Shown: positions 43,009 to 43,378 of the stretch, piece by piece
Layout of the letters: each line of letters starts with the position of its first letter
Numbering within the stretch: the stretch's first letter is position 1
DNA from: Octopus sinensis
Taxonomy: Eukaryota
Direction of reading: 5' to 3'
DNA: 64,000 nt
Assembly: GCF_006345805.1 (NCBI RefSeq)
Contig: NC_043011.1
Coordinates: 67,158,464-67,222,463 of the forward strand
Made by a program: the position numbers and the translations under genes
Notes under the pieces: model-generated
The model's input: the letters and a program-made list of their open reading frames with translations, nothing else
The model's database searches: none
What the model was told of the DNA's origin: nothing

Positions 43009-43378
43009 AGTATACTTTACGTTGTCGAGCGGTTACTGTTTACATCTCGTTCAGAGTTTTAATATCGCTTGCAGACAGTTTTTCGAAATCAGTGACGGAA
43101 GTTACTGGGAAAACAATAAATAAATATTTGCAAACAGGTCTCCCTTCATCGAAAACCGGTGATTGCCGTACGCCGAAGACAGGCAAATACTTAGAAACTG
43201 CAGTCCATGCGTGTCACTTAGGTTTACGAGAGAGGGATGACTTCCCTTTGCAAATACCATAAGGTCCTAGAAAGTGTGCCTAAAGCCAGCTGGAGACGAT
43301 GATCTCCTGAGGCTAAAAGCTACAGTAACATCCACCCTTAGTGTTTAGCCATATTTTGATGGCTAGTATACTTTACGT
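43009..43378 (+). mobile_element. Retrozyme-like monomer (356-nt unit plus 14-nt terminal redundancy) in (TA)n
   Basis: agtatactttacgt at 43009 and 43365; collinear homology to the 358-bp unit at 55452-56766; HHR at 43167-43211. Confidence 0.75.
43167..43211 (+). ncRNA. Type I hammerhead, U4C core variant
   Basis: cgtacg-CCGAAGA-cagg(caaata)ctta-GAAA-ctgcag-TC-catgcg; palindromic stem III, GUC site. Confidence 0.7.

What the first reader, a model, noticed from the sequence alone, without database searches (positions are those of the whole stretch)
43009..43378. Divergent 356-nt sister monomer with terminal redundancy and covarying stems
Seen: the unit is bounded by a 14-nt direct repeat (agtatactttacgt), i.e. 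one turn of a circle plus overlap. It is collinear with the 358-nt unit but starts at a different point, and primary sequence is strongly diverged. Conserved blocks are gagc(g/a)gttactgt..atctcgtt.agag, tttcgaaatcagt, tccctttgca, ggctaaa, cagtaaca and tagcca..tggcta. Stems covary (ggaga/tctcc vs ggtga/tcgcc; stem III ctgcag vs cctggg), and gttactg can pair with cagtaac across the unit junction. The core here is CCGAAGA. Inference: selection acts on RNA length and fold, with circular permutation as expected from rolling reverse transcription of a circRNA.
Basis: partly seen in the sequence, partly recalled or inferred. Interest (0 to 1): 0.85.

Follow-up and report, generated by a model that had tools for sequence, protein, structure and literature searches.

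The report
Hammerhead retrozyme copy with Penelope footprints
This is one worn copy of a 356-base non-coding repeat that carries a hammerhead (self-cutting RNA) motif; its sister copies end at two fixed points and often sit as mirror-image pairs, which shows how such small RNA parasites are likely pasted into an animal genome by Penelope-type jumping-gene enzymes, a known kind of element.

Summary
In detail: a 14-nt repeat, a 356-nt period, the shared blocks and stem covariation (19 of 55 pairs change on both sides across five subfamilies of 352-358 nt). The copy belongs to a dispersed type I hammerhead retrozyme superfamily (1,088 exact matches of one shared block) in a 2.7-Gb animal genome, probably an octopus. 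Random permutation is refuted. 170 of 181 outer 3' ends fall at two fixed sites 44-46 nt apart, 5' ends are scattered, and the 14-nt overlap is a chance truncation point. In 57 of 59 classifiable two-armed inverted insertions one arm ends at each site. Target duplications, mostly 10-16 nt, go with two-armed insertions (27 of 38 against 5 of 34). This is the known Penelope tail signature, so a Penelope-like RT-endonuclease is the likely mobiliser; its specific partner was not found. A circular RNA template is compatible but not shown. The CCGAAGA core is a family haplotype, and this copy's ribozyme is probably dead. New member of a known kind; the scan noted similar elements before on other DNA.

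The parts
43009..43378 (+). Single-armed insertion of retrozyme family A: 1.04 units, 3' end at fixed site 1, 5' end truncated
   Evidence: locus L001
43009..43022 (+). First copy of the 14-nt repeat: the 5' truncation point, 14 nt past one full turn
43365..43378 (+). Second copy of the 14-nt repeat: the fixed 3' end (site 1, inferred reverse-transcription start)
43023..43069 (+). Sequence of the 46-47-nt 'tail' between site 1 and site 2; other copies end at the base equivalent to 43069
43032..43038 (+). GTTACTG, pairs with CAGTAAC at 43323-43329 across the unit junction, enclosing site 1
   Evidence: helix 1
43090..43107 (+). Covarying hairpin (CAGTGAC / GTTACTG)
   Evidence: helix 4
43125..43256 (+). 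Long covarying stem that carries the hammerhead at its tip
   Evidence: helices 5-7; circular folds
43158..43218 (+). Type I hammerhead: bulged stem I, core CCGAAGA (43173-43179), stem II with CAAAUA loop, GAAA, palindromic CUGCAG stem III, predicted cut after C43205. This copy has U4C, a C.A pair closing stem II, and private changes at 43191 and 43207
43292..43307 (+). GGAGA/TCTCC hairpin, covarying
   Evidence: helix 11
43323..43329 (+). CAGTAAC, 5' strand of the junction-spanning helix
43346..43365 (+). TAGCCA..TGGCTA hairpin just 5' of site 1
42955..43007 (.). (TA)n target tract, left flank
43378..43580 (.). (TA)n target tract, right flank; a target duplication cannot be defined inside it
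55452..56223 (-). Sister family B insertion, arm 1: 2.2 units ending at site 1
   Evidence: L031
56222..56767 (+). Sister family B insertion, inverted arm 2: 1.5 units ending at site 2
   Evidence: L031

Best explanation
This is a decayed, 5'-truncated copy of a 356-nt non-coding tandem repeat with a type I hammerhead motif (a non-LTR retrozyme), likely inserted by a Penelope-like reverse transcriptase-endonuclease acting in trans. Shown: a conserved fold and length across five subfamilies; two fixed 3' ends 44-46 nt apart; scattered 5' ends; head-to-tail copies up to 4.7 units; inverted two-armed insertions with one arm at each end site and a target duplication of about 12 nt; AT-rich targets. 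Inferred: the enzyme binds the folded domain around the junction helix, cuts both strands of AT-rich DNA about 12 nt apart, and primes cDNA from each DNA end at a different internal site of the RNA; the two cDNAs stop at variable points and join head to head. A one-armed product such as this copy results when only one end is extended. Inferred from published retrozymes: tandem copies are transcribed, cut as ribozyme dimers through the palindromic stem III, and circularised; the circle as template is about 55% likely, an uncut linear multimer most of the rest. This copy's own ribozyme is probably inactive.
For: End mapping of 113 insertions: 170 of 181 outer 3' ends lie in two windows covering about 7% of the unit; 57 of 59 classifiable two-armed insertions have one end of each kind; non-microsatellite duplications of 8 nt or more flank 27 of 38 two-armed against 5 of 34 one-armed insertions (Fisher p = 1.4e-6); 3 of 136 arms stop at the ribozyme cut site. 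Mismatched-flank control: 12 of 300. These features are the published PLE signature (PMC8557442 passages; PMC3846280 passages; two internal RT start sites bounding the tail and cutting and extension of both strands, PMC11167929 parts 1-2 of 4). RT plus GIY-YIG ORFs of 775-883 aa are in the genome. Covariation. Rfam Hammerhead_1 matches subfamily D at 28.4 bits, E 0.0028. In young family B, units and arms of one insertion share alleles at 99 of 107 informative site-observations and differ by 1.4% against 4.0% between insertions.
Against: No PLE end homologous to the unit was found in 52 loci around GIY-YIG hits; the only matches were separate retrozyme insertions, so the partner is unnamed. The Rfam match is below the gathering score of 34 and the window copy gave no hammerhead row among the 150 of 200 matches listed. 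In family A, 3 of 10 two-armed insertions with both ribozymes readable carry different ribozyme haplotypes in the two arms, and L028 has two different haplotypes in tandem, which a single circle copied round cannot give without a template switch or later conversion. The 20 aligned monomers are only five subfamilies and the structure was drawn from the same alignment, so the covariation counts are not independent. Loci were mostly best full-length matches, which biases arm lengths upwards. Eight of nine frog retrozyme dimers tested in vitro did not cleave (10.64898/2026.07.22.740005).
Confidence: 0.8

Rival explanations
1. One reading: copies are one turn of a circular RNA plus a short overlap, with start points randomly permuted by rolling reverse transcription.
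For: Arms pass the cut site and exceed one unit (96 of 169; up to 4.7 units); a helix spans the unit junction; family B insertions are internally homogeneous.
Against: 3' ends are fixed at two sites (170 of 181); the 14-nt overlap occurs once among 43 single-armed copies.
Confidence: 0.05
2. The unit is the pseudo-LTR of an autonomous Penelope-like element, and these insertions are its truncated stumps.
For: Same tail, inversion and duplication signature; retrozymes and pLTRs are related in frogs.
Against: The unit's 3' end joins its own 5' end in register for up to 4.7 turns with no intervening frame; no mapped arm continued into a shared longer body; no homology to PLE ends in 52 loci; the one lead (L007 flank) was an unrelated 190-nt repeat.
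Confidence: 0.1
3. A dispersed satellite or SINE-like repeat spread by DNA-level recombination or by a LINE, with the hammerhead as a relic.
For: Tandem arrays and target duplications of 10-16 nt also occur with LINE partners (general knowledge); a haplotype with two core deviations still reached 80 exact copies.
Against: No poly(A) or simple-repeat tail of its own; two alternative 3' ends paired one-of-each is not a LINE feature (general knowledge); ribozyme stems I and III covary between subfamilies.
Confidence: 0.05

Closest known systems
Metazoan non-LTR retrozymes (Cervera and de la Pena 2020, PMC7229834: passages and Discussion seen; Li, Clavereau and Pollet 2026, 10.64898/2026.07.22.740005: parts 1-3 of 5 seen, supplements not seen)
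   Same: 150-450-bp tandem monomers, G+C under 50% (here 43-47%), one type I hammerhead per unit, no LTR, target duplications longer than 4 bp, co-occurrence with PLEs; mussel repeats are 350-390 bp.
   Different: Those papers propose PLE mobilisation from co-occurrence and pLTR similarity; in their main texts 'inverted' occurs 0 times and once (a reference title), and 'tail' 0 times in the 2026 preprint. Here the insertions carry the tail, inversion and duplication marks directly. Circular RNA and cleavage were shown there for other animals, not here.
Insertions of endonuclease-bearing Penelope-like elements (PMC3846280 and PMC8557442: passages; PMC11167929: parts 1-2 of 4)
   Same: 5' truncation, partial tandems, an adjacent inverted arm, a tail at one end only, 8-10-bp duplications, AT-rich or microsatellite targets, two internal RT start sites.
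   Different: No reading frame; the whole element is the repeat; the tail is 44-46 nt rather than 30-40; strict one-of-each pairing is counted here (57 of 59).
Canonical and variant type I hammerheads of PLEs and Schistosoma (PMC4209133 part 1 of 4; PMC3088659 passages)
   Same: Short palindromic helix III that needs a dimer; the U3-A8 core covariation; U4C known as a weak natural variant.
   Different: One family holds two co-amplified cores: CCGAAGA with a C.A pair closing stem II (80 exact copies) and UUGACAA with G-C (97 exact copies).

Membership tests
Non-LTR retrozyme | Short tandem monomer of 150-450 bp, G+C below 50% | tested here: met
   352-358 nt, G+C 0.43-0.47, arrays up to 4.7 units
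Non-LTR retrozyme | One type I hammerhead per unit | tested here: met
   Motif in all five subfamilies with covarying stems I and III; Rfam 28.4 bits for subfamily D, below gathering; variant core in this copy
Non-LTR retrozyme | Non-coding, no LTRs | tested here: met
   The one 190-aa stop-to-stop frame over the unit starts in a TA tract and has no Pfam match; units join head to tail
Non-LTR retrozyme | Self-cleavage of the RNA | not testable with these tools
   Needs an in vitro dimer assay; this copy has four deviations in the motif
Non-LTR retrozyme | Expression as circular RNA | tested here: inconclusive
   Only assembled contigs were served, which cannot show ends, strand or circles
PLE-mobilised insertion | Optional 3' tail defined by two fixed ends | tested here: met
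   170 of 181 ends at two sites 44-46 nt apart
PLE-mobilised insertion | Adjacent inverted 5'-truncated arm with the tail at one end only | tested here: met
   68 of 113 insertions two-armed; 57 of 59 classifiable are one-of-each
PLE-mobilised insertion | AT-rich target and short duplication | tested here: met
   41 of 113 in microsatellite; 32 of the other 72 with a duplication of 8 nt or more; control 12 of 300
PLE-mobilised insertion | An autonomous partner sharing the 3' end | tested here: inconclusive
   PLE ORFs present but no shared end in 52 loci drawn from 147 scored GIY-YIG hits of 5,029 candidates
Autonomous PLE | RT and GIY-YIG reading frame between pLTRs | tested here: not met
   No frame inside any of 113 mapped insertions

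The most novel reading that the evidence does not exclude
Each full insertion is made by a dimeric Penelope enzyme whose two subunits prime the two cut DNA strands at two different, structure-defined sites and can use two different RNA molecules. This would explain the one-sided Penelope tail, and would let a retrozyme with a crippled ribozyme (CCGAAGA, C.A) spread as a passenger beside catalytically sound siblings.
Probability: 0.35. Interest if true: 0.65.

Novelty: new member of a known kind. Interest (0 to 1): 0.42.

Why it matters
How animal retrozymes get into DNA is still argued from co-occurrence with Penelope-like elements. This family gives a counted genomic footprint of Penelope-type insertion on a pure retrozyme, two named start sites on a 356-nt RNA with a covariation-supported fold, and natural ribozyme variants. 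That makes it a compact substrate for testing the unresolved second-strand and tail steps of Penelope transposition. The window copy itself is an ordinary decayed member.

Tried and rejected
Random permutation of ends: rejected. A linear, ribozyme-cut monomer as template: rejected, since 135 of 136 arms reaching the cut site pass it and 3 of 136 end within 5 nt of it. Search for the autonomous partner: profile search of 52 PLE loci found only separate retrozyme insertions; the flank of L007 was an unrelated repeat; one junction pattern gave 0 matches. L114, with a retrozyme 900 nt from a PLE frame, is a separate insertion in a TA tract. Expression: no RNA holder listed; contigs of four runs coded as four organisms cover family A (27-29 of 29 bins) and family B (20-30 of 30 bins), which shows presence only. 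Rfam on the window listed microsatellite noise. Earlier findings by sequence: none. RNAalifold's pairing of the core with the cut site, a lone pair and two short pairs were left out of the counted structure. R-scape and LocARNA were not available. Literature searches showed no paper on this family in an octopus; subscription journals, Repbase and bioRxiv supplements were not searchable and may hold it.

Full report
Observation. The 14-mer lies at 43009-43022 and 43365-43378 and nowhere else in the window, so the period is 356 nt. The insert sits between two (TA)n tracts. It is collinear with a 358-nt unit at 55452-56767, about 71% identical over the best 180 nt, and all named blocks are in both. 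The genome is 2.72 Gb with about 30 large contigs; an octopus is my inference, also suggested by an earlier scan note on the same genome.

Family. A DNA search gave 3,567 first-look candidates for this unit and 1,915 for the sister, 40 scored each. A pattern of the shared block has 1,088 exact matches against 0 for the reversed control. From 115 loci I cut 46 full monomers that fall into five groups of 352-358 nt, with a few deletion variants down to 347, and aligned 20 of the 46. Eight monomers folded as circles give z of -3.5 to -8.5 on the + strand with 25 shuffles each; the reverse strand gives -1.4 to -6.0. For a 55-pair structure, 97.3% of cells pair and 19 pairs change on both sides, against 29-43% and 2-5 pairs when partners are slid. 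These counts rest on five related subfamilies and a structure taken from the same alignment, so they support the fold without giving a probability.

Ribozyme. The motif at 43158-43218 reads as a type I hammerhead (numbering recalled): bulged stem I, core, stem II with a CAAAUA loop, GAAA, a self-complementary stem III, and GUC before the predicted cut. Stem III stays self-complementary in all subfamilies (helix 9, 97.5% paired), as expected for the dimeric form described in PMC4209133 (part 1 of 4). Rfam Hammerhead_1 matches subfamily D at 28.4 bits, below its cut-off of 34. Family A has two main haplotypes: CCGAAGA with C.A closing stem II, and UUGACAA with G-C; exact 28-nt patterns give 80 and 97 matches. 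The second is the U3-A8 covariation of PMC4209133; U4C is described as strongly lowering activity in vitro (PMC3088659 passage). The window copy has 16 differences from at least 27 of 29 other copies, two of them in the ribozyme stems, so it is probably inactive.

Ends. I mapped 135 loci (best full-length matches for three subfamilies, the first 30 pattern matches on one contig, 20 chosen multimer loci). Merging by left junction left 114 (L169 and L176 dropped out this way, perhaps wrongly); I removed L135 as a duplicate of L134, and ignored a separate hit in L144 and a third piece in L139, leaving 113. Of 181 outer 3' ends, 170 lie at site 1 (the end of the window copy) or site 2, 44-46 nt further on; the two windows cover about 7% of the unit. 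Of 68 two-armed head-to-head insertions, 57 have one end of each kind, 2 have site 2 twice, and 9 have one unclassified end. Of 45 single-armed ones, 23 end at site 1, 20 at site 2 and 2 elsewhere. 5' ends fall in all ten tenths of the unit (152 ends). Outside microsatellites, duplications of 8 nt or more flank 27 of 38 two-armed and 5 of 34 single-armed insertions (p = 1.4e-6), mostly 10-16 nt; mismatched flanks gave 12 of 300. The window copy is a single arm of 1.04 units; its 14-nt overlap is one value in a spread from -227 to +783 nt, and it was the query.

Mechanism. Fixed ends with an optional tail, an inverted truncated arm, short duplications and AT-rich targets are the described marks of Penelope-like elements (PMC3846280 and PMC8557442, passages). 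A purified PLE protein cuts and extends both strands, starts at two internal RNA sites that bound the tail, is predicted to be a dimer, and does not need ribozyme cleavage in vitro (PMC11167929, parts 1-2 of 4). RT plus GIY-YIG frames of 775-883 aa are in this genome. I infer that such an enzyme makes a staggered cut of about 12 nt and primes one cDNA from each end, one at each site. The template is not a cut linear monomer: 135 of 136 arms that reach the cut site pass it, and 11 of 169 exceed two units. In young family B, units and arms within an insertion agree at 99 of 107 informative observations and differ by 1.4% against 4.0% between insertions, as a single circle or a uniform multimer would give. 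In older family A the figures are 28 of 124 and 5.0% against 6.5%, much of it likely recurrent mutation, but 3 of 10 two-armed insertions have different ribozyme haplotypes in their arms and L028 has two in tandem. That points to two templates per insertion, a mixed multimer, or later conversion.

What failed. A profile of the superfamily found no homologous end in 52 loci around GIY-YIG hits, only separate retrozyme insertions. Only contigs were available for expression, so circles and cleavage are untested.

Comparison. The element meets the sequence-level definition of a non-LTR retrozyme (PMC7229834, passages and Discussion; 10.64898/2026.07.22.740005, parts 1-3 of 5). Both papers name PLEs as the likely mobiliser; neither main text describes inverted arms or tails on retrozyme insertions by word search ('inverted' in both, 'tail' in the preprint only), and their supplements were not seen. 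Six literature searches listed no paper on this family. Earlier notes of this scan report the same class and marks for other units in octopus-like genomes; they are unchecked and I reached my reading before seeing them.

Verdict. A real, structured, selected RNA element; a new member of a known kind. The value lies in the counted insertion footprint, not in this copy.

Noticed in passing
L213-L224 (e.g. G000:C1:2576186): A non-autonomous Helitron-like element of about 375 bp (5' TC, 3' hairpin plus CTAG) carries inside it a tiny two-armed family-A insertion flanked by a duplication of about 11 nt; a 28-nt junction pattern has 3,821 matches with up to one mismatch. A retrozyme scrap was thus amplified by a different transposon far beyond its parent.
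   Followed up: partly
window 40308-42688: PIF1 helicase frames at 40308-41960 followed by a Helitron-type 3' end (hairpin plus CTAG) at about 42664-42688, 320 nt left of the finding.
   Followed up: no
L122:5741-6294: A distant 360-nt hammerhead unit with a UUGAUAA core, matching the superfamily profile at E 8e-11; a sixth, older branch.
   Followed up: no
L114, L120, L151 and L113: PLE families with minimal hammerheads near their 3' ends; the L114 family also shows CCGAAGA or CUGAAGA cores, and the L113 family ends at two points about 21 nt apart.
   Followed up: partly
window 33630-36646: A 42-nt tandem array of about 70 copies with a short inverted run at its left end, inside 298-nt inverted arms at 33426-33723 and 36553-36850.
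   Followed up: no
window 16022-17161 and 57925-58456: A mariner-type transposase frame with a 532-nt, 98% identical inverted partial copy 41 kb away.
   Followed up: no
window 24600-30200: Long degenerate (AC/AT)n tracts arranged as large inverted repeats around 27000-28000.
   Followed up: no
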